Shown: piece by piece, positions 33,720 to 60,738 of the stretch
Numbering within the stretch: position 1 is the stretch's first letter
Layout: each line of letters opens with the position of its first letter
Virus record (IMG/VR): IMGVR_UViG_3300026479_000008
DNA: 64,000 nucleotides
Strand: one strand, 5' to 3'
Source: an uncultured virus (IMG/VR IMGVR_UViG_3300026479_000008)
Taxonomy: Duplodnaviria > Heunggongvirae > Uroviricota > Caudoviricetes
Made by a program: the position numbers and the translations under genes
Notes under the pieces: generated by a model
Databases searched by the model: none
What the model was told of the DNA's origin: nothing
Seen by the model: the letters and a program-made list of their open reading frames with translations, nothing else

Positions 33720-33746
33720 GTTATACACACATTTAGTGAAATGTTT
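33720..33746 (-). promoter_or_regulatory. Putative middle promoter AAAC-N17-TATAAC
   Basis: taAAC atttcactaaatgtgtg TATAAC. Confidence 0.65.
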
Positions 33747-34487: not shown

Positions 34488-34745
34488 TTAGTCTCCTGCC
34501 ATTATTACCGTTTTTTTAAGCTGCAATAACGTATCACATTTTTCATACTCCTCAAGTTCTTCAAAATATTCTATAATAATATCTATGAACTTGCTTCTTT
34601 GTCCTTCGCCATGAGGGATTTCTATCGTATTCTTGCCTTCGCTGAATACAACAAATCTATTAATGGTTTTAGTAAAATTTCTTGTGATAGTATAATAGCT
34701 TGATCTCATCAATGCGTCTTTGTCATCACTAAAAGATTCCTTCAT
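34488..34745 (-). CDS. Small protein with C-terminal UVR (UvrB/C)-like motif
   Basis: IIIEYFEELEEYEKCDTLLQLKK; ATG at 34745 preferred over TTG at 34787. Confidence 0.65.
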   Translation of the reverse strand: MKESFSDDKDALMRSSYYTITRNFTKTINRFVVFSEGKNTIEIPHGEGQRSKFIDIIIEYFEELEEYEKCDTLLQLKKTVIMAGD

Positions 34746-34851
34746 TACAAAGTATATTTTTTTATATCGAGATATTAATAATCTCAATTTATATATTTAA
34801 TTCCGGTAAGGTCTAAGGTAAAATGAAGTAAAAAAATATGTTATTATATTT

Positions 34852-35049
34852 CTACTTGTCCTTGTTTTCGGCGTTAGATTTCTTTTGAAGATATATTGCC
34901 TTTTGGAACTTAAGTCTCTTTAATGCAGAGGGCTTCGTATATTGCTTTTCATCTCTAACCTTTTTCATCTGTTTGGTCTTAATGGTTTTACGCTTATACT
35001 GTTTTAAAGCTTTTTCTATATTCCCTTTATCTACATTAATTATTAACAT
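34852..35049 (-). CDS. rpsU: Ribosomal protein bS21
   Basis: MLIINVDKGNIEKALKQYKRK...YTKPS..R...QKAIY, Flavobacteria-type bS21 pattern; 65 aa, basic. Confidence 0.88.
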   Translation of the reverse strand: MLIINVDKGNIEKALKQYKRKTIKTKQMKKVRDEKQYTKPSALKRLKFQKAIYLQKKSNAENKDK

Positions 35050-35348
35050 ATATTGCTTATGATTTTTTTAAGTTCATGGCATCTTTCATATTCTTCTTGT
35101 TCTGCGAAATATTTGATAACCGTTTCTAGTGCTGCTATTTTTTCTTCTTTAGGAGAATTATTGTTTAATGCTCCCATTTCATTTTCAATTATAGCCTTAT
35201 AAATTAAGTCCATCATTATCTCTTTGGATGATGATTTCAATTTTTCAATAAACGCGATTGATTCTACGCTGTTGTTAACTTCAAATTCTGGATTATTTCT
35301 ATTGGTATCTGAATTATCCCATTCGTCAAAATCTGGTAAATCATTCAT
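35043..35348 (-). CDS. Small protein with C-terminal UVR-like motif
   Basis: LETVIKYFAEQEEYERCHELKKII. Confidence 0.65.
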   Translation of the reverse strand: MNDLPDFDEWDNSDTNRNNPEFEVNNSVESIAFIEKLKSSSKEIMMDLIYKAIIENEMGALNNNSPKEEKIAALETVIKYFAEQEEYERCHELKKIISNIC

Positions 35349-36141
35349 TGTCTATTTCTTTTATTTTTTTTATTAGTTCTATTTGTGAATCTTTAAGGGG
35401 TGGATTAAATGCATTTAACTTCACCATAAGGTTACCATAAGTATTCATACTATATATCGGGAATCCTTTACCACTTATTCTTAATATCTTATTATTCTGT
35501 GAATTTGGAGGAACATTTACCTTTATTTTATAAAAAGGCGTATTGATTTCTATTTCAGTTCCTAGAATCATATCATAAAAAGAAACATTTGCATCTACAT
35601 AGATGTCATTTCCGTTTAATATAATCCTATCATCATATTTTAAATTAATTATAATGATTAGATCTCCTTTGGGTGCAGATGAATTAGCAGGATGAGGTTG
35701 ACCTTTTCCACTAATTTTTAACTTCATACCTTCATAAACTCCTTTAGGTATATTAACGTTTAGTTTTTTAGAACCTATGTCTACTCTCTTTTGGGTTCCA
35801 TGATAAGATTCTTCTAGGGTTATTGTCATTCTAACCGTAACGTCTCTTCCTTTTGAAGAGGAACCAAACGCATCATTGAACATATCACTGAAGGATCCTT
35901 CTCCGTTTTGAAACCAACTATGAAATGGATTGTCAGAAGACTTATATCCTAATTCAATATCATACTTTCTTTTTCTGTTCTCGTCAGATAAAACCTCGTA
36001 TGCTGTAACTATTTCTTTAAAGGAAGACTCATCCCCTTCGACGGTATCGGGATGATATTGCTTTGCTAGTTTACGATAGGCCTTCTTAATCTCGGCTTGG
36101 CTTGCTGACTTGTCTATCTGCAGCAGTTCGTAGTAGTTCAT
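35341..36141 (-). CDS. dnaJ: DnaJ-class chaperone (CbpA/type II, no zinc finger)
   Basis: J domain with HPD; C-terminal G.D....ITLEE.Y.G, IPKG, GDL, LRISGKG; no CxxCxGxG repeats. Confidence 0.9.
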   Translation of the reverse strand: MNYYELLQIDKSASQAEIKKAYRKLAKQYHPDTVEGDESSFKEIVTAYEVLSDENRKRKYDIELGYKSSDNPFHSWFQNGEGSFSDMFNDAFGSSSKGRDVTVRMTITLEESYHGTQKRVDIGSKKLNVNIPKGVYEGMKLKISGKGQPHPANSSAPKGDLIIIINLKYDDRIILNGNDIYVDANVSFYDMILGTEIEINTPFYKIKVNVPPNSQNNKILRISGKGFPIYSMNTYGNLMVKLNAFNPPLKDSQIELIKKIKEIDNE

Positions 36142-36280
36142 TCTTTCTTTTCTTTACGGCTTCCTTAACGACTTTAATGCTCTTTCTTTTTTCAACCACA
36201 TCTCTTTTCTGTTGGTTTTCCATAAGATCTGCAATTCTCGTAAGTTGCTCCGCAATGACTTTTAATAATTGTTCTTCCAT
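36086..36280 (-). CDS. Hypothetical protein (start revised to ATG 36280)
   Basis: MEEQLLKVIAEQL; TATAAATA motif at 36285-36292 just upstream; 3' end overlaps the dnaJ start by 56 bp. Confidence 0.5.
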   Translation of the reverse strand: MEEQLLKVIAEQLTRIADLMENQQKRDVVEKRKSIKVVKEAVKKRKNELLRTAADRQVSKPSRD

Positions 36281-36298
36281 GATATATTTATACACATT

Positions 36299-36583
36299 TT
36301 ATTTATTGTCTAGAATATTTTTAAGATGTGCACATTTTTCATATTCTTCAGATTCCTGAAACCAATCTAACATTTGCTGTAATGTTCTGATAATCGGTTC
36401 TATTTCTATGCCGTTGTCTTGCATTGATTTAAAGTCAACTCCTTTTTCTAAGATCATATCCCAGTTATTTCTAACTAGTTTATCTTTCAGTTCGTGAAGG
36501 TTATTTTCCATATCTGCATTTTTTTGAATTTGAGCTATTTCATCGTGCTCATCGTTGTTTTGGTCTTCGAAGTCTTCAAACAT
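36299..36583 (-). CDS. Small protein with C-terminal UVR-like motif
   Basis: LQQMLDWFQESEEYEKCAHLKNIL; downstream of 60-bp element copy 3. Confidence 0.7.
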   Translation of the reverse strand: MFEDFEDQNNDEHDEIAQIQKNADMENNLHELKDKLVRNNWDMILEKGVDFKSMQDNGIEIEPIIRTLQQMLDWFQESEEYEKCAHLKNILDNK

Positions 36584-36598
36584 ATTTCTTTATTTTTA

Positions 36599-36664
36599 AT
36601 TACTATACTAATATAAGCAAAATTTCTGAGATAAAAAAACTTTTAACTGTTTATTTTCAAAAAA
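36599..36664 (-). promoter_or_regulatory. Repeated 60-bp element, copy 3 (putative early promoter)
   Basis: attactatactaatataagcaaaatttctgagataaaaaaacttttaactgtttattttcaaaaaa. Confidence 0.75.
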
Positions 36665-36671
36665 GTTTAAA

Positions 36672-37415
36672 TTAAAATGGAGCTTCAACCTTAGATACTA
36701 GTTCCATATCTGACATCTTTAACATCACGTTCATAGTTCCAATAACATCATCTTCACAATAGTCTTTAATTTCTTCTAATCTTCCAGCGTAATACGCTTC
36801 TGATACTTCACCACCATACATGTTTTGTTTAGGAGAAGGTATCTGTAAAAGATCACAGATCATAGAAAGAGATGCACCATTCCATCCGCCAAATTTCCAT
36901 ATTTCATTAGTGTCTAATAGACAATTCTCCCATGGCTTAAGTTTTTGTAAGTGTAATTGTTGTGGAATTTCTACACCTTGAATAATGGATCTTTTAATTA
37001 AGTAAGGCATATCAAAGCCTTTAATGTTATGACCTACTATTTGAATTTTAGGATTTGCCTTAAAGATTAATGCCATCGTATCCATAAATTCCTTTAGAGT
37101 ATTCTTTTCATCATCTCCATAAAAAGACTTTATCTTAGGGGTAGGTGTAATGCCATCTGGGAAGGTGACTTGTCCGATTGTAATAACTACTGCTCTTCCG
37201 AATTCAGGATAAAGGGCAGCATCCTTGATATACATATCAGCATCTGAAACTCCTTCATACTCTGATTTACTTTGTCTACCATACTTTGCTTTCTTTTCCC
37301 AGTGTGAGTATGCATTTTCTCCAATAATCTCTGCAAAGCTATCTAAGTCCTTTGCAGCAGTTGACGTTTCAATGTCAATAAATAACATGTTTTTTAAATC
37401 TGAAATACTATACAT
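36672..37415 (-). CDS. 3'-5' exonuclease, DnaQ/PolB-exonuclease-like
   Basis: FIDIET (ExoI), GHNIKGFDMPY (ExoII), YCEDDV (ExoIII). Confidence 0.88.
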   Translation of the reverse strand: MYSISDLKNMLFIDIETSTAAKDLDSFAEIIGENAYSHWEKKAKYGRQSKSEYEGVSDADMYIKDAALYPEFGRAVVITIGQVTFPDGITPTPKIKSFYGDDEKNTLKEFMDTMALIFKANPKIQIVGHNIKGFDMPYLIKRSIIQGVEIPQQLHLQKLKPWENCLLDTNEIWKFGGWNGASLSMICDLLQIPSPKQNMYGGEVSEAYYAGRLEEIKDYCEDDVIGTMNVMLKMSDMELVSKVEAPF

Positions 37416-37656
37416 CTTTTTCTTGTTTTGGGTGAGTTTTTCTAATATTATAAATAGAGACTGGATATCTCATTTGTCTTCCATAATTTCCATTAACAAA
37501 TGTAAACCATCGATGGCCGTATGTTTCTGTTAATTTGTCAGAGGTACCTTCTAACTTTCCTACTTCCCATGATCCTGCGAAATAGAAATAGTACGTTTCG
37601 CCAATAATTGGCTTCTTAACGTGAATAATCTCTAGCTTCTTTTTCTTCTTTGCCAT
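37408..37656 (-). CDS. Hypothetical protein (start revised to ATG 37656)
   Basis: MAKKKKKLE; a promoter motif occupies the ORF-track 5' extension. Confidence 0.6.
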   Translation of the reverse strand: MAKKKKKLEIIHVKKPIIGETYYFYFAGSWEVGKLEGTSDKLTETYGHRWFTFVNGNYGRQMRYPVSIYNIRKTHPKQEKDV

Positions 37657-37660
37657 ATAG

Positions 37661-37687
37661 ATTATACTCAAATATGTGTAATTGTTT
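37661..37687 (-). promoter_or_regulatory. Putative middle promoter AAAC-N17-TATAAT
   Basis: taAAC aattacacatatttgag TATAAT. Confidence 0.7.
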
Positions 37688-38153
37688 ATATTTTCTTCTT
37701 TAATCTCATTAAGTATACTACTCTAGAGAAATGATAAAAGGAAAGAATAGGTATCTGTAACACTTCAAACAAGAATAAATTCTGTTCAGTGTTTATAAAG
37801 AGTGTTGGATATAATATTGCAGATATTATTCCAAAGATTTTAAATCTTTTATCAAAGAGCATGATCCATGTCGATGACATAAAAAATAGAATAGCAGATA
37901 TATTATGTATTGTAGGGTAATTTGCAACGCTAAAGCTTGCTATGATTATTAATAAGAATGCCGGTATTTTCCATTCAATAGAACGATGAAGCCATAATCC
38001 TAATGAAACTCCTATTGTTAATAAAGGGAATAAGATTGGTTTTAATTGATGATAATCACTATAACTATCCTCTATGCCTAGGATTAATGGCAGACACACT
38101 GTATATAATATTGCGTAAATACACAGTGCAAATCGTAACCATAATCTATTCAT
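37686..38153 (-). CDS. Multi-pass membrane protein
   Basis: 5-6 hydrophobic helices; SYSDY and IHNISA.LFF motifs (DUF998/Frag1-like). Confidence 0.6.
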   Translation of the reverse strand: MNRLWLRFALCIYAILYTVCLPLILGIEDSYSDYHQLKPILFPLLTIGVSLGLWLHRSIEWKIPAFLLIIIASFSVANYPTIHNISAILFFMSSTWIMLFDKRFKIFGIISAILYPTLFINTEQNLFLFEVLQIPILSFYHFSRVVYLMRLKKKI

Positions 38154-38179
38154 ACTTGGAAGTTTATTAACTATACTTA

Positions 38180-38206
38180 ACTATACACTTCCATTTGGAA
38201 TTGTTT
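38180..38206 (-). promoter_or_regulatory. Putative middle promoter AAAC-N17-TATAGT
   Basis: gAAAC aattccaaatggaagtg TATAGT. Confidence 0.6.
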
Positions 38207-38209
38207 CAA

Positions 38210-38434
38210 TTAAAAGTGTCCGTGTTCTTTAACACGTCTTATCATAAGATATGTGTTATATGATACGTTAATTTCTGCATATCCTCCTGTAATTGTAGAA
38301 GGACAAGATTCTCTAGAAATCCAATAGCTAGGTGGTTCTTTAATTCTTTCTGTTATAAAGTCAAACAGTTTGTCAATGTCCATGTGATGAACCCATAAGT
38401 TCACATGCATACAAGTCATATCCGGATATGCCAT
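38210..38434 (-). CDS. Hypothetical protein
   Basis: 74-aa ORF. Confidence 0.55.
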   Translation of the reverse strand: MAYPDMTCMHVNLWVHHMDIDKLFDFITERIKEPPSYWISRESCPSTITGGYAEINVSYNTYLMIRRVKEHGHF

Positions 38435-38437
38435 AAT

Positions 38438-39391
38438 TTATTCTTTTATTTCGAATCGTTCGCTGTCAAGTTCTATAGTTTTTTTATCTAAATCATTAGA
38501 TAATTTTGTTAGGGCCTTGTCAGTATCTTTGTTTACTTCTCTTCCGTAAAAGTCTTTAAATATTTTACGGTATATTTGCACAGTAGAATCATAAGGAACT
38601 CCAGGTTGAGAATTACTTTCTATAATATACAATTTTCCTTCTTGATCTTCCATTATATCAAAACATATATATGGTAAATCTTTAAACTTATCACAGAATT
38701 TTTCTATTAGTGTTTTAAATTTTTCAGGAAGAGTTGTAATATCTCTTTTGATATATTTAAAATTCATTTCTTCTTTTCCGTCACCATCACCTGATTTTGC
38801 TTTATCATTTAATGGTTCTCTTTCCATCCAAAAGAAAGCATCTCCTTTAAAGTTAATTATTCTATGCTCTGATTTCTTATCTACGAATTCGGAATATACG
38901 TCAAATTTAGAATGATCAGCTTTATCCCAATCTTCCTGAGATTTAAAAACCTGAATTCCAATACCTGAATGTCCTTCAGCTGGCTTTGCAATTAATGGAA
39001 AACCAATTTCTAAAGCTTCTTTCTCGTCATGGCATGTTTGTGGAATGTTTTCATCTCCATCGACTATTTTATGAAACTCTGCCTTAGATCCAGATTGCTT
39101 AATGAATTCTGGTCTATTATATACATTTTCTTTTTTAACTAATCCTTCCTTTAAAAGGGTTTCAACTACTCCTGAATTATAGGTTAATATAGGATAGTCT
39201 GGATTAATATCTATGTCTTTATAATTGTCTTTATTGATTTGTATAAAGAAATTATCTGACGCAAATCCTTTATAAGACCACCACCTGTGACCTGAGTCGG
39301 GATCAATTGCTAGATAAACTTTAAAAAGATCATTAGTATCTTCGTTTAGGCTTTCGTTAATAAATTGGTTGAATGATTGTATTTGCTTCAT
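38438..39391 (-). CDS. ATP-grasp (RimK-like) ligase with capsid-targeting-like N-terminus
   Basis: FPLIAKPAEGHSGIGI, EHRII, CFDIMED...YIIESNSQPG; starts MKQIQSFNQFINE; GATAAATA at 39396-39403. Confidence 0.8.
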   Translation of the reverse strand: MKQIQSFNQFINESLNEDTNDLFKVYLAIDPDSGHRWWSYKGFASDNFFIQINKDNYKDIDINPDYPILTYNSGVVETLLKEGLVKKENVYNRPEFIKQSGSKAEFHKIVDGDENIPQTCHDEKEALEIGFPLIAKPAEGHSGIGIQVFKSQEDWDKADHSKFDVYSEFVDKKSEHRIINFKGDAFFWMEREPLNDKAKSGDGDGKEEMNFKYIKRDITTLPEKFKTLIEKFCDKFKDLPYICFDIMEDQEGKLYIIESNSQPGVPYDSTVQIYRKIFKDFYGREVNKDTDKALTKLSNDLDKKTIELDSERFEIKE

Positions 39392-39398
39392 ATTCTAT

Positions 39399-40016
39399 TT
39401 ATCCACTCATCTTACAGAAACTTACAGTAATATACCTTGTTCCTGAAAAAATAGGCTTTGCACCGTGTCTATGTGTAATTGCACCTGGGTGTAAAGCTGC
39501 CATTCCAACTCTAGGAGGACTAATATTTGCCTTATATAATGGGAAATAAGTTCCACCTCCTGTAAAATCTTCATTCATTCTAACAACAGTTGTTAAATGG
39601 CTATTATCATGGTGAAGAGAAAGGTGCGCTTGTGTTTCTGTAGTATACTTTACAATAAATGTTTCATCTGACATAGAATTCCACTGCTTTCCTTCTAAAG
39701 TCCAGAACCATATTCCTAATGGCCTAACAAATTCGTTAAGAACCTTTGAGTAAATTTCATTCATCCATACTTTGTCAATGAGCATGTCGGTTGTTGGATA
39801 AAATTCATGTCTATCTACTGTCCATTCTCCTTCAGTTTCACATAGTTCAATTAGATCTTTACAAAACTGTTCTTTAAATAAAGGAAATACTAAAACACTC
39901 GGAGCCGCTTCGTCAACTATGAGTTCATATTCTCCTTTTCTTAAAAGGGGATCGATGTATTTGTCACACCATGCATCCCAATCGCTTGCATCTAAAATTT
40001 CTACGTATTTTCCCAT
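39399..40016 (-). CDS. 2OG-Fe(II) dioxygenase resembling the procollagen lysyl hydroxylase (PLOD/LH) catalytic domain
   Basis: FPLFKEQFCKDLI, PTTD, FIVKY...Q..L.LHHDNS, F.GGG..F, LHPG..TH.H...I..GTRYI.VSF; HxD...H iron triad plus the 2OG-binding Arg. Confidence 0.85.
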   Translation of the reverse strand: MGKYVEILDASDWDAWCDKYIDPLLRKGEYELIVDEAAPSVLVFPLFKEQFCKDLIELCETEGEWTVDRHEFYPTTDMLIDKVWMNEIYSKVLNEFVRPLGIWFWTLEGKQWNSMSDETFIVKYTTETQAHLSLHHDNSHLTTVVRMNEDFTGGGTYFPLYKANISPPRVGMAALHPGAITHRHGAKPIFSGTRYITVSFCKMSG

Positions 40017-41890
40017 TATTTTACTTTTTCTAATTTAGTTACTTTTTTTTCAACTCCTGATTTTTCAGCGTATGTTTCGTTAGCAACTCCTTCTTCTTCT
40101 CCATATCTTGACTCTGCTGAGATAGGATAGTCAGGGCTTTCATTATATGCCCAATCTTCTATTCCTAATTCAATAAATCTAGCGTTGATTTGTTCATTAT
40201 AATATTGTGCTATTGTTCTAACTCTTCTTTGAATGTCTGCTCTTGATAAATCATGAGTGTTTCTTCCACCTTGATTATTATAGAGAAATTGAATATAGCT
40301 TAGTTTAGGTATTTTACATATCTTAGAATATAGGAAGCTTCTGATCACTAATTCAAAATCATCTGCAATTGTTAGACTTCTGTTATGTCCTCCTATTTCA
40401 AAATAAGTAGATCTTCTCCATGCTCTAACGTGATTTGGAACTCCTACAATATGTCTGATTGTTTTTGGATTAATATTCTGTTGATTAGCAGGTGACAACA
40501 TTCTACCTTCATACTCTTCTTCTCTATAAGAACCATATCCTAATGCAAACCCTTCTCCATATCTTTGATTTTCCCACTCTTCATTTACCTCGGCAGTATC
40601 TCCATAAAACATACCACAATCAGGATGTGCCTGTGCAGCATTATGTAAATCTTCTGCACATGTTTTAACCAATAAGTCATCATGGTCTAATTCTGCTAGA
40701 ATATATCCTTTAGCAAGAGAACAACATCTGTATTTAGATTCTCCAATACATCCTCCTGATTTTTCTCTAAAATCATACACCTTTACTCTTGGATCTACTA
40801 ACGCAATTTCTTCTGCTATCTTTAAAGTTTTACCTCCATCGGTGGAATCATTTACTAAAACCCATTCCCAGTTATTATACGTCTGATCTCTTACGGATCT
40901 ATATGTGTTCCATAACTTTTCACCAGTATTATATATAGGCGTAAAGAATGAAATCATCTGATCATCTTCTAGGTTAGAAGGAGATAGAATAGAATTCATT
41001 GCTACGGAATATGCAGTGTTTCCTATATTTTCCGTGTTCTCAGAATTAAACCACCTTTTTCTAAATTGGAGAGGAAGAGAAGCTAGGTTAGGAAACTCTT
41101 TCCATGATTCTCCATTTGTAATAATTGCATCAGGATTAAACGACGTAACTGCGTTAATTACTTCACTATCGTCTTCTAAGTATTTAACGTCTAATTCATC
41201 TGCTTCATACGATAAATATTTTATAGACTTTAATTCTGGCTTAGTTTTTCCTATATAAATTATTTTAGGTATTTTTGCACTTGGTACTTTTTCTAAATAA
41301 TTGTAGTGGCATAAAACCTTGTCAATCCATACGAATGAATCACCATGTGTTTTTAATACTTCTTCTATAAAGAAACCGTCTGCTGCATAATTTGCACTAA
41401 ACGAATGAGTATCAAATATGCTTCTATTAATAACCATCTGTGCAATGTCAATTTTCTGAAATGCAGTATTTTCACGACTAGCTACTCTAATTTCTTGTCC
41501 GGTAAAATCTCTACCTGCAACTAATTGAGAAACGATATGAACCTGTGCAATTGGAAGATTCTTTATACTCGCTTTAATAGTTTTGTAAAAGTCTTCGTGT
41601 ATAATGTTATCATCATCTAGTAAATAGATCCAACCTGATTTGATTGTTCTAATAATATCAGAAACTTCAGGATATAATAATCCTCCTCTTTGTCCTTTTA
41701 CAAAATGTAATTTGACATTGACAGTATCTGTTAAGTTCGAGAGAACCTCTGCATCAATATCCTTTAATGCTCCTGTATCAAATACAATGTGCCAATTTAC
41801 TGTTACTCCCTTAGGCGCATTTAATACTCCTTCTTTAATTGTTAAAAGGTTACTTGTTCTGGTACACCTTGTAATAATATTAATCTTCAT
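40016..41890 (-). CDS. Two-domain glycosyltransferase (GT-A domain plus GT2 domain)
   Basis: N-terminal YLLDDDN; C-terminal ISFFTPIYNT, QTYNNWEWVLVNDS, AELDHDD. Confidence 0.85.
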   Translation of the reverse strand: MKINIITRCTRTSNLLTIKEGVLNAPKGVTVNWHIVFDTGALKDIDAEVLSNLTDTVNVKLHFVKGQRGGLLYPEVSDIIRTIKSGWIYLLDDDNIIHEDFYKTIKASIKNLPIAQVHIVSQLVAGRDFTGQEIRVASRENTAFQKIDIAQMVINRSIFDTHSFSANYAADGFFIEEVLKTHGDSFVWIDKVLCHYNYLEKVPSAKIPKIIYIGKTKPELKSIKYLSYEADELDVKYLEDDSEVINAVTSFNPDAIITNGESWKEFPNLASLPLQFRKRWFNSENTENIGNTAYSVAMNSILSPSNLEDDQMISFFTPIYNTGEKLWNTYRSVRDQTYNNWEWVLVNDSTDGGKTLKIAEEIALVDPRVKVYDFREKSGGCIGESKYRCCSLAKGYILAELDHDDLLVKTCAEDLHNAAQAHPDCGMFYGDTAEVNEEWENQRYGEGFALGYGSYREEEYEGRMLSPANQQNINPKTIRHIVGVPNHVRAWRRSTYFEIGGHNRSLTIADDFELVIRSFLYSKICKIPKLSYIQFLYNNQGGRNTHDLSRADIQRRVRTIAQYYNEQINARFIELGIEDWAYNESPDYPISAESRYGEEEGVANETYAEKSGVEKKVTKLEKVK

Positions 41891-41904
41891 ATTTATATTT
41901 GTTT

Positions 41905-42837: not shown

Positions 42838-42858
42838 CGATTGTGTTCTATAATATTA

Positions 42859-42885
42859 GTTATACTTAGATATTTTAAATTGTTT
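42859..42885 (-). promoter_or_regulatory. Putative middle promoter AAAC-N17-TATAAC for the oxygenase/GT/lysyl-hydroxylase operon
   Basis: taAAC aatttaaaatatctaag TATAAC; a GATATATA late motif is also present at 42920-42927. Confidence 0.65.
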
Positions 42886-42931
42886 ACTAAGTGTAATAAG
42901 ATAATAAGTTATTACAATCTATATATCACAT

Positions 42932-42962
42932 AAAAAAAGGGTCCTCTTTCGAGGACCCTTTC
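42932..42962 (-). terminator. Rho-independent terminator after the collagen fibre gene
   Basis: Minus strand AAAGGGTCCTC-GAAA-GAGGACCCTTTTTTT. Confidence 0.9.
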
Positions 42963-42985
42963 TAAAATTATCTTGATGATTTAAA

Positions 42986-48544
<5,559 letters not shown>

Positions 48545-48564
48545 GTTTTAATAATTTATTTTTT

Positions 48565-49341: not shown

Positions 49342-49460
49342 GAATAGTTACATTTTTTTTTATTTATTTTAAATGTGGAATAATTCCACTCAATCTTATA
49401 TATTATAAATTGATGGGATAAAGGTCCCAGAATCTATAGTATAAGATATTATTTTACGTA

Positions 49461-50231: not shown

Positions 50232-50243
50232 TATTTATTATGT

Positions 50244-51431: not shown

Positions 51432-51468
51432 GTTAAACCGATATTTTGTTTTACTATATATTTTAAAT

Positions 51469-51497
51469 AAAAAAGGCTCCTCTTCCGAGGAGCCTTT
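51469..51497 (-). terminator. Rho-independent terminator
   Basis: Minus strand AAAGGCTCCTC-GGAA-GAGGAGCCTTTTTT. Confidence 0.9.
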
Positions 51498-51540
51498 AAT
51501 CAATTAAGCATTAAGCTAATAATTTAAACCGAAGTTTAGA

Positions 51541-53313: not shown

Positions 53314-53483
53314 ATTATTTATATAATTATTTTTTGCACACCCTACATTATTGTAGGATTGGATTATATATTAATACGTTTATTCGTGGGGGGTAAAAAA
53401 GTATATAATATCTTAATAAAATTAATTAAATTTTACGTATTTACGTTTTTACGTTTTTCTTATAATACTAAGATAATATATTA

Positions 53484-54710
53484 TTAAGAATAAGATTCGT
53501 AGAATAAAGAGACTCTATCTTCATCAGTGAGCTCATATCCCGCGACTATCGAGTTAAAGATTAATTCATCACCTACTCGGATATCTTGGAATGTTCTAGC
53601 AGTAGTTCCTCCATCTGATGAAAAGTAACCATCTAGGTTTTTAGTTCCGTCTCCTAATGAAATAGAAATACCATTAATTTCAACGTCAATGTATTGGCCA
53701 TCTTGCGGTGTAACCGATAATATGATTCCAGTTCTAGATACATTTCCAGATGTATTATTTGGAATTAATTCTTTATCTAGTACTGTGCTAGATTTCTTAC
53801 CTAGATCAGTTGAAGATAATGCTGAACCATATACATCTAGTTTAAATGAAACTTCGTCCGTAACTAGCCAATTATTTTTATATACACCAGGTCCTTCAGT
53901 CGACATTTCGTGAGATACTATAACCTGTATTGCATCATCGATGTCGTCAATACATTCTCCAGAAGAACAGTTGATTCTGTACCAGTCTACTACATTAAAA
54001 ATAGAATATTGAGCGGTATCGCTTCTGTTTATTAATGTAATCGTACCTTCAATTCCATCTTTATCTATTCTGTTAATTAAAAAGTTTTCTAAAACACTTA
54101 CTCTAATTCCATCGTAGTCACTATTCATAAATGTCATTTTAGTTACTAGACCAGGGGATCCTGAATCTAAAGATAAGCTTCCTTGTCCAATAGGAACTGA
54201 ACCATCGATATGTTGAACTTTATAATATGGATCCATGGACGAAGATACACCTATTCCCGAACTTCTTTGAGTAGATTTATACAGAGAAGGATCGTGTCTG
54301 TTTTCATTAAATAAAATAGATCCAATTTCCATGTTAGGTAAAGAATAAACCTTAGTAGGTTCTATTCTAGAATTAGTCACTACTATGTTTACGTATATTT
54401 TTCCAGCAGGAAGATTTAATGTTTGTAGTTTTGATAATTCAAATTGAAAAACAGCCTGTGTAGTTGGATCGTCATTTACTAATATAAGATCTCCTGAAAC
54501 TCCGTATACTCTAGGCATTGAATATTGTGCGATTAAATCAGACGATTCATCTAATAAATTCATAGTAAATGTAGAATATAGTGATGTATTAAGATTTCCA
54601 CCTACCCTATCTCTATATAGTTTTACTGTGTAGACTTGTGAGTCTCCCTGTATAACATCTATTGTGTTATCAATATATCCAATAATATCTTCTTGCGTAA
54701 CCTGTGGCAT
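53484..54710 (-). CDS. Putative virion structural protein with C-terminal domain paralogous to 48565-49341
   Basis: TGIILSVTP...VEINGI...YFSSDGGTTA...GDELIFN...AGYEL; GATATATA at 54737-54744. Confidence 0.65.
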   Translation of the reverse strand: MPQVTQEDIIGYIDNTIDVIQGDSQVYTVKLYRDRVGGNLNTSLYSTFTMNLLDESSDLIAQYSMPRVYGVSGDLILVNDDPTTQAVFQFELSKLQTLNLPAGKIYVNIVVTNSRIEPTKVYSLPNMEIGSILFNENRHDPSLYKSTQRSSGIGVSSSMDPYYKVQHIDGSVPIGQGSLSLDSGSPGLVTKMTFMNSDYDGIRVSVLENFLINRIDKDGIEGTITLINRSDTAQYSIFNVVDWYRINCSSGECIDDIDDAIQVIVSHEMSTEGPGVYKNNWLVTDEVSFKLDVYGSALSSTDLGKKSSTVLDKELIPNNTSGNVSRTGIILSVTPQDGQYIDVEINGISISLGDGTKNLDGYFSSDGGTTARTFQDIRVGDELIFNSIVAGYELTDEDRVSLFYESYS

Positions 54711-54736
54711 TTTTAAACTATTTTGTTTTTATAAAC

Positions 54737-54744
54737 TATATATC
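54737..54744 (-). promoter_or_regulatory. Putative late promoter GATATATA (fibre island)
   Basis: Recurrent octamer upstream of a structural gene. Confidence 0.6.
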
Positions 54745-54748
54745 TTGA

Positions 54749-55435
54749 TTAATTTGCTCTTAAATGATTGTAAAGCTTAAATTTTAATACTGGCAATACC
54801 CTTTCATTCATATCGAATTCTGAATTAACACTGCATCTAAAAAACCTATAATCAGAACTTTCATCTTGTACCTTTGTAATAAAAAGAGAAATTGCTCTTA
54901 TATCATACACTGTTTCTCCTTCATATTTTAGATTTAAATCTTTCCAGTTTTCTGTCAATAAAGAAGGAACTTTAAAAGAATATATTTGCATGATATCTTC
55001 AGGAGTTTTCACTAAAGCATATCCTAGTTTTTTAGTTCTTTTAATATCTGGAATTTCTGTAATGTTAATAGCCTTCTCGACTAATCTAAATACTACCCTT
55101 ACATTTTTATGTATATCTTCTAATATATCTATAGCTTTATCACAAAGCTTATACATGTCTTCTATATGTTTATCTCCTTCTGGATATTCATATTCTAAAG
55201 ACATTGTGTCAAGGTTGATTCCCTTGAGAACTCTTAAATTAACGTCTATCTCCTCCTTCCTGTGCTTAATTTTATACATTTCAAGTAGATGATCTTCTAC
55301 TTCATCGAGTATGGATATTAAGCCTCCATCTTTGAGAATCTTATTAAAAGTGTTCTCAGCTGCTAAGAGTTTATAGTATTTTAATTCAAAATCATGAGGC
55401 TCGATAGTGAGCCAATTTGGATCTAATACATTCAT
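54749..55435 (-). CDS. Hypothetical protein (resembles a conserved Bacteroidota family)
   Basis: N-terminal WL....DFE.K.Y.LLA motif, recalled rather than searched. Confidence 0.55.
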   Translation of the reverse strand: MNVLDPNWLTIEPHDFELKYYKLLAAENTFNKILKDGGLISILDEVEDHLLEMYKIKHRKEEIDVNLRVLKGINLDTMSLEYEYPEGDKHIEDMYKLCDKAIDILEDIHKNVRVVFRLVEKAINITEIPDIKRTKKLGYALVKTPEDIMQIYSFKVPSLLTENWKDLNLKYEGETVYDIRAISLFITKVQDESSDYRFFRCSVNSEFDMNERVLPVLKFKLYNHLRAN

Positions 55436-55467
55436 GGAATATTTATCTAAAATTCCACGCGTGTATT

Positions 55468-55779
55468 TTATTTTTTAGAAGATGTCTTCTTTTTAGAAGC
55501 TTTTTTAGGTGGAGTTTGTTCGGTTGGAATAACTGCTAATCCCCATTGTAGAATAAACCACTGTGCTTCTTTCTCAGCTTGTTTGATGTCTAATCCTAAT
55601 GTGTTAACAACAGTTTCTGTAATATGCTTTATAAACTTTTGCTCTTTTTCTTGAGTAGTTTTATATTCCATATACCATTGTGGATTGTCCTTAACATCAT
55701 CATAGGTTACCCCATGATCTTTTAATTGATGATTGATTAGCTCAATAAATAATTCTCTTTCAATGTCTCTGTTTCTCAT
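55468..55779 (-). CDS. Hypothetical protein
   Basis: 103-aa ORF. Confidence 0.6.
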   Translation of the reverse strand: MRNRDIERELFIELINHQLKDHGVTYDDVKDNPQWYMEYKTTQEKEQKFIKHITETVVNTLGLDIKQAEKEAQWFILQWGLAVIPTEQTPPKKASKKKTSSKK

Positions 55780-55973
55780 AATGATAGTATTGTAATTAGT
55801 GCATCCATATCCTGTAACCTAATCCATTCGTCATAGGTTAAAGAGATCATGGTGAAGTCTTTTGCCGGTGTATTTAAAAATTCAAACTCTTTCGTCGTCT
55901 CCGAAAAAGGATCACTTAATATCTTATTAAGAGAGTCTAAATCTTGCGTTTTTACGTAAATATGAATTTTCAT
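55776..55973 (-). CDS. Hypothetical protein
   Basis: 65-aa ORF with ATGA overlap. Confidence 0.55.
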   Translation of the reverse strand: MKIHIYVKTQDLDSLNKILSDPFSETTKEFEFLNTPAKDFTMISLTYDEWIRLQDMDALITILSL

Positions 55974-55985
55974 ATAATTTATATA

Positions 55986-56654
55986 TTAAGATTTCCCGAT
56001 GATTTCGTCAATAATACCATAAGCTTTAGCTTCTTTTGCATTTAACCAAAAGTCTCTAGTCGCATCTTTCATTACTTCGTCAGCTGGTTTTCCACAATAT
56101 TCTCCTAAAAGATTAAATAATTCTTTATTTACTTTTTGCCATTCTTTCCAATCTATTTCAGCATCTTGAATATTACCATTAAATCCACCAGAGGATTGGT
56201 GTAACATTGTAGTAGAATGTCTAAGTGAAGATCTTTTTCCCTTAGTTCCTGCTCCTAATAAAACAGAACCCATTGATGCAGCCATACCAGTATTTACTGT
56301 TTTAATATCTGACTTAATGTAATCCATAACATCAACCATTGAAAGTCCACTTTTAACACTTCCACCTGGAGAATCAATATGCATCGTAATATCTGTTCCT
56401 CCAACTGAGTCTAAAAACATCAACTGTGCTTGAACAATCGTAGACATATTATCATTAACAGGTCCTGCAACCCATAATAACCTATCCATCATTAATCTAG
56501 AAAAGATATCCATCTGAGTAGCTCTTAACTCTCTTTCTTCTAAGATATATGGAGTTAACGAGTTTTCAATCTGCTTCTCATAGTAATTTAATTTAGATGA
56601 TGAAACATTATGATCACTCATCGCATACTTTTCAAATTCTTTTCCGTAATTCAT
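55986..56654 (-). CDS. clpP: ATP-dependent Clp protease proteolytic subunit
   Basis: DIFSRLMMDR, IDSPGGSV, GMAASMGS (catalytic Ser), MLHQ (His), RDFW (Asp); Bacteroidota-like N-terminal extension. Confidence 0.95.
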   Translation of the reverse strand: MNYGKEFEKYAMSDHNVSSSKLNYYEKQIENSLTPYILEERELRATQMDIFSRLMMDRLLWVAGPVNDNMSTIVQAQLMFLDSVGGTDITMHIDSPGGSVKSGLSMVDVMDYIKSDIKTVNTGMAASMGSVLLGAGTKGKRSSLRHSTTMLHQSSGGFNGNIQDAEIDWKEWQKVNKELFNLLGEYCGKPADEVMKDATRDFWLNAKEAKAYGIIDEIIGKS

Positions 56655-56681
56655 ATAATTCTTTGTGTGTATTATTTTAAT

Positions 56682-56708
56682 ATTATATTAAGTTATCCTT
56701 AAATGTTT
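56682..56708 (-). promoter_or_regulatory. Putative middle promoter AAAC-N17-TATAAT (clpP)
   Basis: gAAAC atttaaggataacttaa TATAAT. Confidence 0.65.
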
Positions 56709-57522
56709 CAACATAAGAATAAGTATTATCAGATTCGGTATCATCTCCTTGTGTTATTAGATTATGATTAGTCATATACACTTGCATGTTTTTGAATTGA
56801 TAATTAATCCATACGTCAACTGGGCCGACAATAGGCAAACCTTCTAATAATTTCTTAGCTCCTTCGTATGTTAATACATAACCAGATAACCACCATACTC
56901 CATTATATAACCGTGATAGATTTTGGGAATGAGGATCCCATGTAAATCCAAATTGATTTGGCAAACTAGAAAGATACAATAAATCCCAATCATTAGGAAG
57001 TTCTTTTTCAAATATGCTTTCTATTTTATCTTGAAATTTATGACAAAATTCAAAGTCATCTTCCATTATGAGGGTGACTGGTGTTTTATTCTCTACAATT
57101 TCTTTCCAAATTCTATAGTGTGAAAATGCGATTCCAGTTTCAGCAGAAGAACATAATATCTTATTATTTCTTTTTAATTTATTTTTCATTCCGGGAGAAG
57201 GATCTATTTCCCAGTGAAATGAAAATGGATATTTGTTAATGTGTATTTTTTTAGAAAACCACTTTATTCTTTTTCCTTCTATTGCGTCAAAGAATCTTAA
57301 ATGATCTAGTAATGTTTTACGTCCCTTTAGTTTTTGGGAAGATGCTCTCTTCTCTGCTATTTTTAATCTATCTTTCCTGTATGCTAGATGAATAACTACG
57401 GTGTCGTCAATATACTTAGTCCATTCAATTCTTTTCTGTCTCTCGAATACTCGTAAGAGTCGAGAGAACCATTTTGATGTGGTTCTAGCGACTCTATTAA
57501 ATCCTTCAAGCCCGTACTTCAT
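56683..57522 (-). CDS. Glycosyltransferase family 25 (LgtB/COLGALT-like)
   Basis: VIHL..RKDR, FDAIEG, E.GIAFSHYRIWKEIV, LIMEDD, WDLLYL, GYVLT..GAKKLL, PVD. Confidence 0.85.
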   Translation of the reverse strand: MKYGLEGFNRVARTTSKWFSRLLRVFERQKRIEWTKYIDDTVVIHLAYRKDRLKIAEKRASSQKLKGRKTLLDHLRFFDAIEGKRIKWFSKKIHINKYPFSFHWEIDPSPGMKNKLKRNNKILCSSAETGIAFSHYRIWKEIVENKTPVTLIMEDDFEFCHKFQDKIESIFEKELPNDWDLLYLSSLPNQFGFTWDPHSQNLSRLYNGVWWLSGYVLTYEGAKKLLEGLPIVGPVDVWINYQFKNMQVYMTNHNLITQGDDTESDNTYSYVETFKDNLI

Positions 57523-57530
57523 TATTGAAT

Positions 57531-57833
57531 TTATATTCTATTTAGCAAGTCTGTGATGTGTTTACATTTTTCGTAATTTTCTCTTTCTTTAAAAAATTCT
57601 AGAGATTTTTGCAAAGACTTATTATATCTATCTTCATCCAAGAGGGATTCATACTCATTTCCTTGTTCATCTATCAATTTACATAGTATATTTCCTTTCA
57701 TTGATATTCCATCAATAGTATCTTCTATGTGTTGTACGATATTTAAATGAAAACCGACAATGTCATCTATGCCATCTTCCAAGGAACCCAGTTCCATCGT
57801 CCTAGTGTTAATCCTGAATTTCGGGTATTCCAT
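57531..57833 (-). CDS. Small protein with C-terminal UVR-like motif
   Basis: LQKSLEFFKERENYEKCKHITDLL. Confidence 0.65.
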   Translation of the reverse strand: MEYPKFRINTRTMELGSLEDGIDDIVGFHLNIVQHIEDTIDGISMKGNILCKLIDEQGNEYESLLDEDRYNKSLQKSLEFFKERENYEKCKHITDLLNRI

Positions 57834-58707
57834 CCTTTCCTATGAGTTCTTCTTCATTAATAATACCTGCGAATGATTCTAGAATTTGTCTGAATTCTTT
57901 CTGTGTAGGTTTTTCAGTTTCTATAGTCTCGTTTACTTTTTCTATAAAGGATAATCCATGATCTGTTAATAGCATCTTACCCGCTTCAATGGTAAAGAAT
58001 GGTTGATCTATTATCATTGCGTATTGTGTAGAATCTTCTATAATTTCTTGTTGAATTTTAGCTGCTAATTCGAAGTGTCTTTCGTAGAAATGAGAGTTAT
58101 CTGCACAATGGTAATATACTCCTAGGTCTAGTTCAGGGTATGTGTCTTTTAACCATAGATGAACATGTTGGTGAACGAATGCAAAGAAAGGTGCGTCAAA
58201 CGTTAATCCATAGAACACATCATTAGATCTCATTTGAACTTTCATATTCAATTGATTATTTCTAATAAAGAAATTTAAGTACATAGTACATACAAAATCT
58301 TTATTACCTTCAAACTGAAATTTGGGTTGATTAAGAAATGCTATCGCCTGTCTCGTGTTTTGATCCGCTTTTAATGAATCTACAACCCATTCTAATTGTT
58401 CATTAAATAATAGTGAACCGTAGTTTGAGTTAATTTCATTTGAATTAGGATTAGTTAATGTAGACCAGAATCCTGAAAATTGACCTATATAATCTACATC
58501 GTTATCTTTTCGTAGATACCATGTTAATTCACCTGCAAAGTATTTCCAGTTGAATTTTCTATTTTCAAAATTAGCAATAGGCATGTAAGGATCTATAGGT
58601 AAAGTTGTAAGGGCTAATTCCTTTACTTTCATATCACGTGGTTGTGATACACTTCCTATATCGTCTATGTTTGTAATTGTTTTTGAGAATTGACTTGAAA
58701 AATTCAT
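57808..58707 (-). CDS. Thymidylate synthase superfamily enzyme, dCMP hydroxymethylase-like
   Basis: NSNYG, TRQA, KDFVCT (catalytic Cys), MRSNDVFYGLTFD, H.YERHF. Confidence 0.8.
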   Translation of the reverse strand: MNFSSQFSKTITNIDDIGSVSQPRDMKVKELALTTLPIDPYMPIANFENRKFNWKYFAGELTWYLRKDNDVDYIGQFSGFWSTLTNPNSNEINSNYGSLLFNEQLEWVVDSLKADQNTRQAIAFLNQPKFQFEGNKDFVCTMYLNFFIRNNQLNMKVQMRSNDVFYGLTFDAPFFAFVHQHVHLWLKDTYPELDLGVYYHCADNSHFYERHFELAAKIQQEIIEDSTQYAMIIDQPFFTIEAGKMLLTDHGLSFIEKVNETIETEKPTQKEFRQILESFAGIINEEELIGKDGIPEIQD

Positions 58708-58728
58708 TTAATAAGTTATTAGTTTATT

Positions 58729-58755
58729 ATTATACTACTTTTTAATAGAAAGTTT
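58729..58755 (-). promoter_or_regulatory. Putative middle promoter AAAC-N17-TATAAT
   Basis: taAAC tttctattaaaaagtag TATAAT. Confidence 0.7.
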
Positions 58756-60738
58756 ATCTTCTTTCTTCGTATGATTGATTGTGTACACCTCGTCTCCTCT
58801 AACTATTTCTCCTTTAATAATAGCATCCGCTAAAAGATCTTCAATGTAAGTTTGAACCGCTCTCTTCAAGGGTCTTGCACCATAATCAGGATCATATCCT
58901 TTTTCTGCTAAGAATTCCTTTGCTTGCTTAGTAACTTTAATATTATATTTCTGATCAAACATTCTAATTACCAGGTGTCTAACTTCAATATCAACAATTT
59001 GAAGAATATCTTCATGCTTTAATTGGTCGAATAATACTACATCATCTAATCTATTTAAAAATTCCGGTGCAAACTTATTTTTAAGTTCCTTTGCGATGAT
59101 AGCTTCAGTGTGTGCTTTTCTTCCAGCGATTGAAGATTTCTTAGTTTCAAATCCAATACCCGTTCCGAACTCACTTACTTTTTTAGCACCGACATTAGAT
59201 GTCATAATGATAATCGTATTCGTAAAGTCAACTGTTCTTCCTAATGAATCTGTTAATCTTCCTTCGTCTAATACTTGTAGTAAAGTATTGAATACATCAG
59301 GGTGTGCTTTTTCAATTTCATCGAAAAGTACAACCGAATAAGGTCTTCTTCTAACCTGTTCTGTTAATTGACCGCCATCTTCATGACCAACATATCCAGG
59401 AGGAGAACCAATTAATCTTGATACTGCAAACTTTTCCATGTATTCGCTCATATCAATTCTAATTAAATGATCTTCTGATCCAAAGTAATAATTAGTAATC
59501 GCCTTTACTGTTTCTGTTTTACCAACACCAGTTGGTCCTAAGAACATAAAAGAACCTATAGGTTTTTTAGCAGATGATACACCAGTTCTTGATCTTTTAA
59601 TTACCTTAGAGAGTGCGTCTACTGCTTGATCTTGTCCAATAATCATTTTCTTAAGCTCTGTTTCCATTGCTAGGATTATTTTACTTTCATCACCTGTCAT
59701 TCTTGTTACAGGAATTCCTGTTGCTTGTGAAATAGTTTCAGCAATATCTTCGGCTGTTACTTTTTTCTTTTTATCTCTTAGTGACTTTTCCCATGCAGAT
59801 ATTTTCTTTTCAATTAAATTCTTAGATTGAATTTCTTTATCTCTAAAGTGAGCAGCTTTTTCATAGTCTTGTTCTTCAACTGCCTTTAATTTGTCAAGTG
59901 TTAAAGCTTCTACCTCAGTCTCCGCTCTTTTAATATGCACAGGTACTTTGATTTCGCTTAAGTGAACTTTTGCACCTGATTCATCCATTAAATCAATAGC
60001 CTTATCAGGAAGTTCTCTACTTGTAATATACCTTGTAGAAAGAGAGACACATGCTTCTAGTGCATCATCAGTATATTCAACTGCATGATAATCTTCATAG
60101 TTTCCTTTAATTCTTTGTAAGATTTCGATAGTATCTTCCTCGCTAGGTGGATCTATAAATACTTCTTGGAATCTTCTAGTAAGTGCACCATCATCTTCAA
60201 TATTTTCTCTATATTCATCTAAAGTAGTTGCACCAATACATTGTACTTGTCCTCTCGCTAATGCAGGTTTTAATATATTTGAAGCGTCTAAAGATCCACT
60301 AACACCACCTGCTCCAACGATTGTATGTAATTCATCGATAAAAACAATGATGTCTTTGTTATTCTTTAATTCCTCAACGATAAGTTTCATTCTTTCTTCA
60401 AACTCACCTCTATATTTTGTACCTGCTACGATATTAGAAATATTGATAGAAACTATTCTTTTCTTTAAAAGAGTTCTTGCTACTTTCTTATCTACGATTC
60501 TTTGTGCAATCGCCTCTACTAACGCAGTCTTACCTACACCAGGATCTCCTAAAATAATAGGATTATTCTTCTTTCTTCTCGATAGGATTTGGCAAATTCT
60601 ATACACTTCTTTTTCCCTTCCGATAATAGGATCTAGATTTCCTTTTGCAGCTTCAGCTGTTAGGTCTTCTCCATACTCATCAACGTAAGGTGTTTTTCTT
60701 TTACCGCCTTTTCCTGGATTTTCAAATTGTTCTGCCAT
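58735..60738 (-). CDS. clpC: ClpC-type AAA+ unfoldase lacking the N-terminal Clp-repeat domain
   Basis: Two AAA modules (GDPGVGKT/IDE and GPTGVGKT/FDE), pore loops KYRG and GYVG, UVR M-domain (EQDYEKAAHFRD), IGF ClpP-docking loop; only about 15 aa precede the D1 module. Confidence 0.92.
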   Translation of the reverse strand: MAEQFENPGKGGKRKTPYVDEYGEDLTAEAAKGNLDPIIGREKEVYRICQILSRRKKNNPIILGDPGVGKTALVEAIAQRIVDKKVARTLLKKRIVSINISNIVAGTKYRGEFEERMKLIVEELKNNKDIIVFIDELHTIVGAGGVSGSLDASNILKPALARGQVQCIGATTLDEYRENIEDDGALTRRFQEVFIDPPSEEDTIEILQRIKGNYEDYHAVEYTDDALEACVSLSTRYITSRELPDKAIDLMDESGAKVHLSEIKVPVHIKRAETEVEALTLDKLKAVEEQDYEKAAHFRDKEIQSKNLIEKKISAWEKSLRDKKKKVTAEDIAETISQATGIPVTRMTGDESKIILAMETELKKMIIGQDQAVDALSKVIKRSRTGVSSAKKPIGSFMFLGPTGVGKTETVKAITNYYFGSEDHLIRIDMSEYMEKFAVSRLIGSPPGYVGHEDGGQLTEQVRRRPYSVVLFDEIEKAHPDVFNTLLQVLDEGRLTDSLGRTVDFTNTIIIMTSNVGAKKVSEFGTGIGFETKKSSIAGRKAHTEAIIAKELKNKFAPEFLNRLDDVVLFDQLKHEDILQIVDIEVRHLVIRMFDQKYNIKVTKQAKEFLAEKGYDPDYGARPLKRAVQTYIEDLLADAIIKGEIVRGDEVYTINHTKKEDKLSIKK

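What the first reader, a model, noticed from the sequence alone, without database searches (positions are those of the whole stretch)
34488..60738. N-domain-less ClpC plus ClpP plus four small UVR-motif proteins: possible modular phage proteolysis/adaptor system
Seen: four otherwise dissimilar 85-101 aa proteins end in one helical-hairpin motif: YFEELEEYEKCDTL (34488-34745), YFAEQEEYERCHEL (35043-35348), WFQESEEYEKCAHL (36299-36583) and FFKERENYEKCKHI (57531-57833). It aligns with the M-domain tip of the phage ClpC (AVEEQDYEKAAHF). That ClpC keeps both AAA modules and the IGF loop but lacks the N-terminal domain normally used for adaptor and substrate binding. One UVR protein lies between clpC and clpP; three surround dnaJ and rpsU. 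Established: UVR motifs pair head-to-head, ClpC M-domain tips mediate the resting state and MecA binding, and the Clp-associated factors McsA and ClpF carry UVR domains. Inference: these proteins are plug-in adaptors or regulators that dock on the M-domain of phage or host ClpC, each variable N-terminus choosing a substrate. They sit in different promoter contexts, which would allow timed degradation.
Basis: partly seen in the sequence, partly recalled or inferred. Interest (0 to 1): 0.82.

Follow-up and report, generated by a model that had tools for sequence, protein, structure and literature searches.

The report
Headless phage ClpC with hairpin proteins
A large uncultured phage carries a protein-unfolding motor (ClpC) that lacks its usual control head, plus four small proteins ending in a hairpin like the motor's own off-switch; only the one inside the protease gene block looks like a real partner, probably an activator.

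Summary
Observation confirmed. Four 85-101 aa genes end in F-x-E-x-E-x-Y-E-x-C (4 hits; 0.002 expected). ClpC starts where S. aureus ClpC's N-domain ends, with motors, IGF loop and M-domain tip intact. The hairpin is UVR-like, not Pfam UVR: none of the four hits PF02151, and the tip Arg-Asp is missing in all 144 members checked.

The adaptor-set idea is only partly supported. U4 (57531-57833) sits in a clpC-thyA-U4-clpP block across its clade. A protein of the same predicted fold follows an N-less clpC in 76 of 80 loci of a second lineage. A predicted ClpC-U4 complex gave weak support (0.48, best control 0.28). U1-U3 keep fixed places beside dnaJ, rpsU and phoH, about 20 kb away. A cultured Flavobacterium phage with no clpC or clpP also carries the hairpin.

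Best reading: U4 caps the M-domain tips that, in published N-less ClpC, lock rings head-to-head, so it switches the phage protease on (about 0.4). A four-adaptor substrate code is unlikely (about 0.12). The scan noted this system before in at least eight other genomes.

The parts
58735..60738 (-). ClpC-type AAA+ unfoldase, 667 aa, no N-domain; M-domain tip Y292/R299/D300 matches S. aureus F436/R443/D444; GIGF loop 527-530
   Evidence: (numbering counted on that alignment)
57808..58707 (-). thymidylate-synthase-like gene between clpC and U4; overlaps the U4 start by 26 bp
57531..57833 (-). U4, 100 aa, beta-alpha-beta-beta-alpha-alpha fold ending in the Cys hairpin; candidate ClpC M-domain cap
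   Evidence: (pLDDT 92, pTM 0.83)
56683..57522 (-). glycosyltransferase family 25 between U4 and clpP; present only in the window's nearest relatives (L001-L005)
55986..56654 (-). ClpP, 222 aa, catalytic motifs ASMG/MLHQ/RDFW present
36299..36583 (-). U3, 94 aa, acidic N-terminal tail, Cys hairpin; behind a repeated long promoter-like motif
36086..36280 (-). 64-aa ORF of unknown function overlapping the dnaJ start
35341..36141 (-). DnaJ-type co-chaperone (J domain plus DnaJ_C)
35043..35348 (-). U2, 101 aa, Cys hairpin; directly after dnaJ in 7 of 7 related regions
34852..35049 (-). ribosomal protein S21 (rpsU)
34488..34745 (-). U1, 85 aa, Cys hairpin; the most conserved of the four; between rpsU and phoH in 7 of 7 related regions
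33745..34473 (-). PhoH

Best explanation
The four proteins belong to a large, virus-restricted family ending in a Cys-bearing variant of the UVR hairpin, but they are not one system. The phage ClpC has lost its N-domain yet kept the M-domain tip. In S. aureus, that engineered form pairs rings head-to-head through the tips and degrades nothing until the tip contact is broken. U4, co-expressed with clpC and clpP, most likely binds the phage ClpC, using its Y-E-x-C hairpin as a free copy of the tip. That would cap the six M-domains, release single hexamers and let ClpC-ClpP degrade proteins whose degrons the pore reads directly. U4 is then an on-switch (perhaps also a tether), not a substrate code. 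U1-U3 use the same hairpin in other contexts, with partners unknown. Shown: anatomy, gene linkage, predicted fold. From papers: behaviour of N-less ClpC. Inferred: binding, binding site, direction of effect.
For: Linkage, lineage A: clpC-thyA-U4-(GT25)-clpP in L001-L014. In the 15 loci without GT25 (L006-L014, L198-L203), U4 abuts thyA (-20 to +16 bp) and clpP (-14 to +41 bp). Linkage, lineage B, fetched by the hairpin protein and not by ClpC: 76 of 80 loci have an N-less clpC upstream on the same strand (74, plus 2 with a split clpC); 2 loci are too short; 2 are another subfamily beside phoH. In 55 non-redundant B loci the gap is 16-4210 bp, under 300 bp in 5, with no clpP or window-type thyA in the fetched flanks. 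A and B ClpCs fall apart on the tree. U4 and B models have the same element order and the same eight best BFVD hits. ClpC-selected loci: hairpin gene downstream in 24 of 38 N-less, 0 of 31 full-length (4 cut loci set aside). Tip Y-R-D kept in 41 of 41 N-less representatives. PMC12583610 sections 7-8 and PMC5699869 passages: delta-N ClpC forms M-domain ring dimers and is proteolytically inactive; adding F436A or R443A makes it degrade GFP-SsrA. Complex of ClpC 12-345 with U4: weak support, score 0.48, best of 3 controls 0.28, runs agree in 100% of contacts, partner pLDDT at least 83. The mark was reached by 116 of 157 solved and 2 of 215 mismatched pairs, but at 0.60 or under by only 18 solved ones and both mismatches. 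UVR bridge: a U4-family protein of LR756504.1 (U4 profile E=4e-10) has Y-E-K-C-x-x-x-R-D and hits PF02151 over 2-35/36 at E=0.001, 19.2 bits.
Against: The linkage rests on two lineages only. Ten N-less representatives from other lineages (L030, L042, L074, L080, L031, L043, L077, L026, L020, L016) have no hairpin gene downstream, and the tree backbone is poorly supported, so the 24/38 versus 0/31 contrast is not independent evidence. Five of 19 N-less records have no Cys-hairpin match at all, one of them 97% complete. The Arg-Asp pair that mediates tip contacts in S. aureus is absent in all 144 family members. The hairpin-to-M-domain profile match is at chance level. Phage immuto 2-6A has no clpC or clpP, yet has a Cys-hairpin protein, a U4-like protein with a degenerate tip, and a small UVR-like gene right after thyA, so U4's place could follow thyA. 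In LR756504.1 the U4-family gene is 45 kb from its N-less clpC. The complex pass is weak, gave no interface, and may be memory of solved M-domain contacts. Homology of U4 and B outside the hairpin is not detectable by sequence.
Confidence: 0.4

Rival explanations
1. The hairpin is a general structural or self-pairing module (third and fourth helices of small bundles, or a homodimer tip) reused by unrelated phage proteins. None binds ClpC; U4's position is conserved gene order in a host-takeover region.
For: Family present without Clp genes. Neighbours differ: dnaJ, phoH, thyA, glycosyltransferases. RD missing. M-domain match at chance. In the AF2 model the hairpin is part of one confident domain (pTM 0.83).
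Against: In lineage B the gene stays behind clpC while the genes between change, and in 5 of 55 loci it follows within 300 bp. Tip residues E, Y, E, C are 94-100% conserved across 86 diverse hairpins while flanks vary. Weak complex pass.
Confidence: 0.3
2. The hairpin proteins act on host UVR-bearing proteins (host ClpC, UvrB/UvrC, nuclease-UVR proteins), hijacking or blocking them as SPO1 Gp53 does with host ClpC; the phage ClpC is incidental.
For: The Clp-less cultured phage has such proteins. Small proteins with a canonical UVR tail occur in phages with full-length ClpC (G051; short UVR frames in G031, G035, G041) and with N-less ClpC (G015). Gp53 precedent (PMC6873191 abstract and section 6). 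Plant UVR proteins are trapped by CLPC1 (PMC8889267 passages).
Against: No host target was tested and the host is only inferred. It does not explain why U4-fold genes stay with phage N-less clpC.
Confidence: 0.18
3. One reading: all four dock on the phage ClpC M-domain as interchangeable adaptors whose N-termini choose substrates at different times.
For: The set of four is kept across lineage A: 3-4 matches in 8 of 10 records, the other two holding one. Different upstream motifs. U2 and U3 have acidic, variable N-terminal tails.
Against: U1-U3 have no positional tie to clp genes. Lineage-B genomes with the same headless ClpC carry only 1-2 copies. MecA needs the N-domain to bind (PMC5699869), and a tip-only anchor is unproven. 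No substrate data.
Confidence: 0.12

Closest known systems
ClpC-ClpP of Staphylococcus aureus / Bacillus subtilis, and engineered delta-N ClpC (PDB 6em8, 3j3s; PMC12583610, PMC5699869)
   Same: Two AAA modules, short UVR-type M-domain with aromatic/Arg/Asp tip, ClpP-binding loop; best PDB hit E=5.6e-224.
   Different: Phage-encoded and naturally without the ~145-residue N-domain, so the MecA and phospho-arginine sites are gone. No natural N-less phage ClpC turned up in my searches.
UVR motif, Pfam PF02151 (UvrB/UvrC, ClpC M-domain, plant CLPF/UVR1-4/EXE)
   Same: Helical hairpin with an E-x-Y-E tip. Bridge protein at E=0.001; 2 of 35 U4-family members hit at E about 0.1; nearest named Atlas clusters are UVR, score 0.83, a lead only.
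   Different: Invariant Cys in place of the first Ala, no Arg-Asp, Phe six residues before the Tyr; below the Pfam cut-off.
MecA and SPO1 Gp53 (ClpC adaptors; PMC6873191)
   Same: Small proteins that modulate ClpC; MecA covers the M-domain tip and breaks head-to-head contacts.
   Different: MecA needs the N-domain; Gp53 acts on the host enzyme. U4's model has no clear PDB match (Foldseek none at E<=0.001; best Z 5.5).
ClpL stand-alone disaggregase (PMC11006417, listing only)
   Same: Forms M-domain ring dimers through the same aromatic tip (stated in PMC12583610 section 8).
   Different: The phage ClpC keeps a ClpP-binding loop and sits near clpP. That ClpL has its own short N-domain and does not use ClpP is recalled, not checked.

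Membership tests
UVR motif (PF02151) | Pfam score at or above 21.5 bits | tested here: not met
   0 of 4 hit at E<=1; best relative 19.2 bits
UVR motif (PF02151) | Two-helix hairpin with aromatic tip | tested here: met
   U4 model helices 67-83 and 87-99 with Y87 at the turn; U1-U3 not modelled
UVR motif (PF02151) | Arg-Asp after the tip (ClpC R443/D444) | tested here: not met
   RD absent in all 144 members of six subfamilies; present in the bridge protein
UVR motif (PF02151) | Profile homology to the ClpC M-domain | tested here: inconclusive
   Best hit on the tip but at chance score; only a transitive link
UVR motif (PF02151) | Head-to-head pairing | not testable with these tools
   The complex job gave no interface
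ClpC | Two intact AAA+ modules with pore loops | tested here: met
ClpC | UVR-type M-domain | tested here: met
   PF02151 25 bits at 274-306
ClpC | IGF/LGF ClpP-binding loop | tested here: met
   GIGF 527-530; x-G-F in 41 of 41 N-less representatives
ClpC | N-terminal Clp_N repeat domain | tested here: not met
   Starts at about S. aureus residue 145; upstream in-frame stop
ClpP | PF00574 and Ser-His-Asp motifs | tested here: met
   192.7 bits; motifs at 126, 150, 200
ClpC adaptor (MecA/Gp53 type) | Binds ClpC | tested here: inconclusive
   U4 only: weak pass, 0.48 against best control 0.28; U1-U3 not tested
ClpC adaptor (MecA/Gp53 type) | Stimulates ATPase and delivers substrates | not testable with these tools
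   Needs biochemistry
ClpC adaptor (MecA/Gp53 type) | Sequence membership of a known adaptor family | tested here: not met
   No such hit in Pfam, PHROGs or NCBIfam

The most novel reading that the evidence does not exclude
Some jumbo phages replaced the ClpC N-domain with separate genes. A free M-domain mimic (U4 type) switches the headless ClpC on, and further hairpin-tailed proteins (U1-U3) dock at the same tip to bring substrates at different stages. Phages without clpC use the same tails on host ClpC. The hairpin would then be a portable 'ClpC address label' across a large viral family.
Probability: 0.15. Interest if true: 0.85.

Novelty: new variant of a known kind. Interest (0 to 1): 0.55.

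Why it matters
Headless ClpC is known from the papers read only as a lab construct, where it locks itself through its M-domain tips. These phages carry it naturally with the tip unchanged, so they must have a way round the lock. If U4 is that way, it is a 100-residue activator acting without the N-domain, a mode of ClpC control I did not find described, and it shows phages running their own regulated protease. The test is a simple three-protein assay. A cultured phage (immuto 2-6A) allows the host-target rival to be tested in vivo.

Tried and rejected
Pfam, PHROGs and NCBIfam name none of the four. The hairpin profile finds no PDB sequence at E<=10. The U4 model finds no clear solved fold (best Z 5.5, generic helical matches); this does not show the fold is new. 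Hairpin versus ClpC profile: chance level; reversed control 13.0. N-terminal homology among six subfamilies: none.

'Hairpin only with N-less ClpC' rejected: G041 has full-length ClpC and two copies; immuto has no ClpC. 'U4 is tied to clpP rather than clpC' weakened: lineage B has no clpP in the flanks, and in G055 clpP is about 100 kb away. 'Headless by misannotation' rejected. 'M-domain tip mutated to compensate' rejected.

One scan of 185,579 prokaryote genomes with the lineage-B pattern gave one locus, a 39-kb MAG contig with the phage gene order; one narrow pattern does not prove absence from cells. GenBank phage searches with U1 and a B protein gave nothing; U3 gave only hits at E>=1. 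The U4 and hairpin alignments were too diverse for pattern scans, so lineage A was sampled through ClpC and single proteins. Profiles A2 and A6 were built from proteins of the genomes later searched, so positive counts are partly circular; six of the N-less records were chosen through the hairpin. Not held, so not searched: L052, L059, L068, L070, L133, L137. No supplements were read. Expression was not examined.
Full report
Setting. The window is bases 62064-126063 of a 133-kb virus record, 44% complete. Nearly all genes are on the minus strand; it carries S1, S21, PhoH, DnaJ, ClpC and ClpP homologs. A Bacteroidota host is an inference: the hairpin family occurs in a Flavobacterium phage, and the best ClpP model is PRK14514, which I recall as the Bacteroidota type.

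Observation. U1 (34488-34745), U2 (35043-35348), U3 (36299-36583) and U4 (57531-57833) exist as described and share six invariant residues. The motif hits these 4 of 145 genes; shuffles give 0.002. Without the hairpin the families do not match each other. ClpC begins where the S. aureus N-domain ends and has an in-frame stop six codons upstream. It keeps all catalytic motifs, the GIGF loop and the tip Y292/R299/D300. ClpP keeps its catalytic motifs.

Is it UVR? A distant variant at best. None of the four hits PF02151, and the profile match to the M-domain is at chance level. Cys replaces the first Ala, and the Arg-Asp is missing in all 144 members. In favour: a U4-family protein of LR756504.1 has both the Cys and the Arg-Asp and hits PF02151 at E=0.001; 2 of 35 U4-family members hit weakly; the nearest named Atlas clusters are UVR at 0.83, a lead only. 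The family is large and viral: 420 of 1999 candidate proteins for the U4 profile, virus-only Atlas clusters, one phage-like contig among cell genomes.

Gene linkage, lineage A. Among 80 ClpC loci, the 14 nearest (68-100% identity) all read clpC-thyA-U4-(GT25)-clpP (thyA of L007 confirmed). U4 abuts both neighbours. dnaJ-U2-rpsU-U1-phoH is kept in 7 of 7 fetched regions, with U3 upstream in the 6 that reach that far. The four-gene set is therefore stable in this lineage, but three members follow other genes. Their N-termini are orthologous, 19-63% identical to the window.

Gene linkage, lineage B. A second group has a 97-119 aa hairpin protein behind an N-less clpC. Fetched by that protein, 76 of 80 loci have the N-less clpC upstream, at 16-4210 bp with changing genes between and no clpP near. 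Its model has U4's element order and the same eight top viral structure hits. The two ClpC groups are separate on the tree, with full-length ClpCs between them on a weak backbone. Downstream hairpin genes occur in 24 of 38 N-less and 0 of 31 full-length loci, but these are two lineages, and ten N-less representatives lack the gene.

Whole records. With a broader profile, 14 of 19 N-less records, 1 of 11 full-length records (G041; a weak hit in a 422-aa frame of G021 not counted) and the one Clp-less record have Cys hairpins (partly circular). Small genes with canonical UVR tails occur with both ClpC types. The complete cultured phage immuto 2-6A has no clpC or clpP. It has gp126 with the Cys hairpin, gp223, a 65-aa UVR-like gene after thyA annotated as McsA-like, and gp161, U4-like with a degenerate tip. 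The family does not need phage Clp genes.

Promoters. U3 lies behind a long motif whose core is found upstream of seven other ORFs of the contig. U1 lies behind an ATATATA motif found in 21 upstream regions, many before long virion-like genes. clpC has a GTATAAC element; U2 and U4 are internal to gene runs. Timing is inference.

Mechanism. In S. aureus, delta-N ClpC binds ClpP but forms head-to-head ring dimers and rods and degrades nothing; with F436A or R443A it degrades GFP-SsrA as fast as MecA-activated wild type (PMC12583610 abstract and sections 7-8; PMC5699869 passages). All 41 N-less phage representatives keep the tip, so the simplest release is a protein that covers it. U4 fits by position and shape. 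The one complex job (ClpC 12-345 with U4, both as alignments) gave weak support: 0.48, best of three controls 0.28, 100% contact agreement, partner pLDDT at least 83, no interface given. The mark was reached by 116 of 157 solved and 2 of 215 mismatched pairs; at 0.60 or under by only 18 solved ones and both mismatches. Solved M-domain contacts could explain the pass. I put U4 as M-domain cap at 0.4, a generic module at 0.3, host targets at 0.18 and the four-adaptor code at 0.12. U4 could also repress rather than activate; nothing here fixes the sign.

Known systems and literature. Closest are ClpCP with MecA, SPO1 Gp53 (PMC6873191 abstract and section 6), plant UVR proteins trapped on CLPC1 (PMC8889267 passages) and ClpL (PMC11006417, listing only). 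Five searches showed no paper on a natural N-less phage ClpC or this family; the library lacks most subscription papers, and no supplements were read. The scan itself noted this system in other genomes; those notes were leads only.

Verdict. The feature is real and is a new variant of a known kind. One member is a good, cheaply testable candidate regulator; the modular adaptor set is not supported. Interest 0.55.

Noticed in passing
window 13901-15229 (-): Ribosomal protein S1-like gene (442 aa; best NCBIfam E=2e-41, below cut-off) in the same phage as S21.
   Followed up: no
window 57808-58707 (-): The thyA-like gene scores far below thymidylate synthase cut-offs; with several glycosyltransferase-like genes nearby it may be a nucleotide-modifying variant. 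Not tested.
   Followed up: no
window 42986-48544 (-): 1852-aa collagen-like (Gly-X-Y) protein, probably a fibre; its C-terminus resembles an intramolecular chaperone domain (recalled).
   Followed up: no
window upstream of 36583, 30708, 30269; contig upstream regions: Three recurring promoter-like motif classes; the long one resembles the Bacteroidota -7 element (recalled).
   Followed up: partly
NC_055915.1 28171-28368, 62554-62856, 74474-74992 (L228, L224, L232): Cultured Flavobacterium phage immuto 2-6A, without clpC/clpP, has three relatives of the family (gp223, gp161, gp126): an experimental handle.
   Followed up: yes
L055-L079 and L118-L195, upstream of clpC: In lineage B the N-less clpC is usually divergent from a ~120-aa gene that looks like a small heat-shock protein (by eye, not scanned).
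   Followed up: partly
L212:1015-1608 (G015): Bifunctional nuclease (PF02577) plus UVR gene in a phage with N-less ClpC and no Cys hairpin.
   Followed up: partly
L048, L057, L066; L032, L033, L059, L178: Phage clpC genes lengthened to about 1200 aa or split by an inserted ORF, probably inteins or introns.
   Followed up: no
L113:4745-5098; L196/L197: In other phages a hairpin gene again sits directly before dnaJ (G069) or phoH, echoing U3 and U1.
   Followed up: partly
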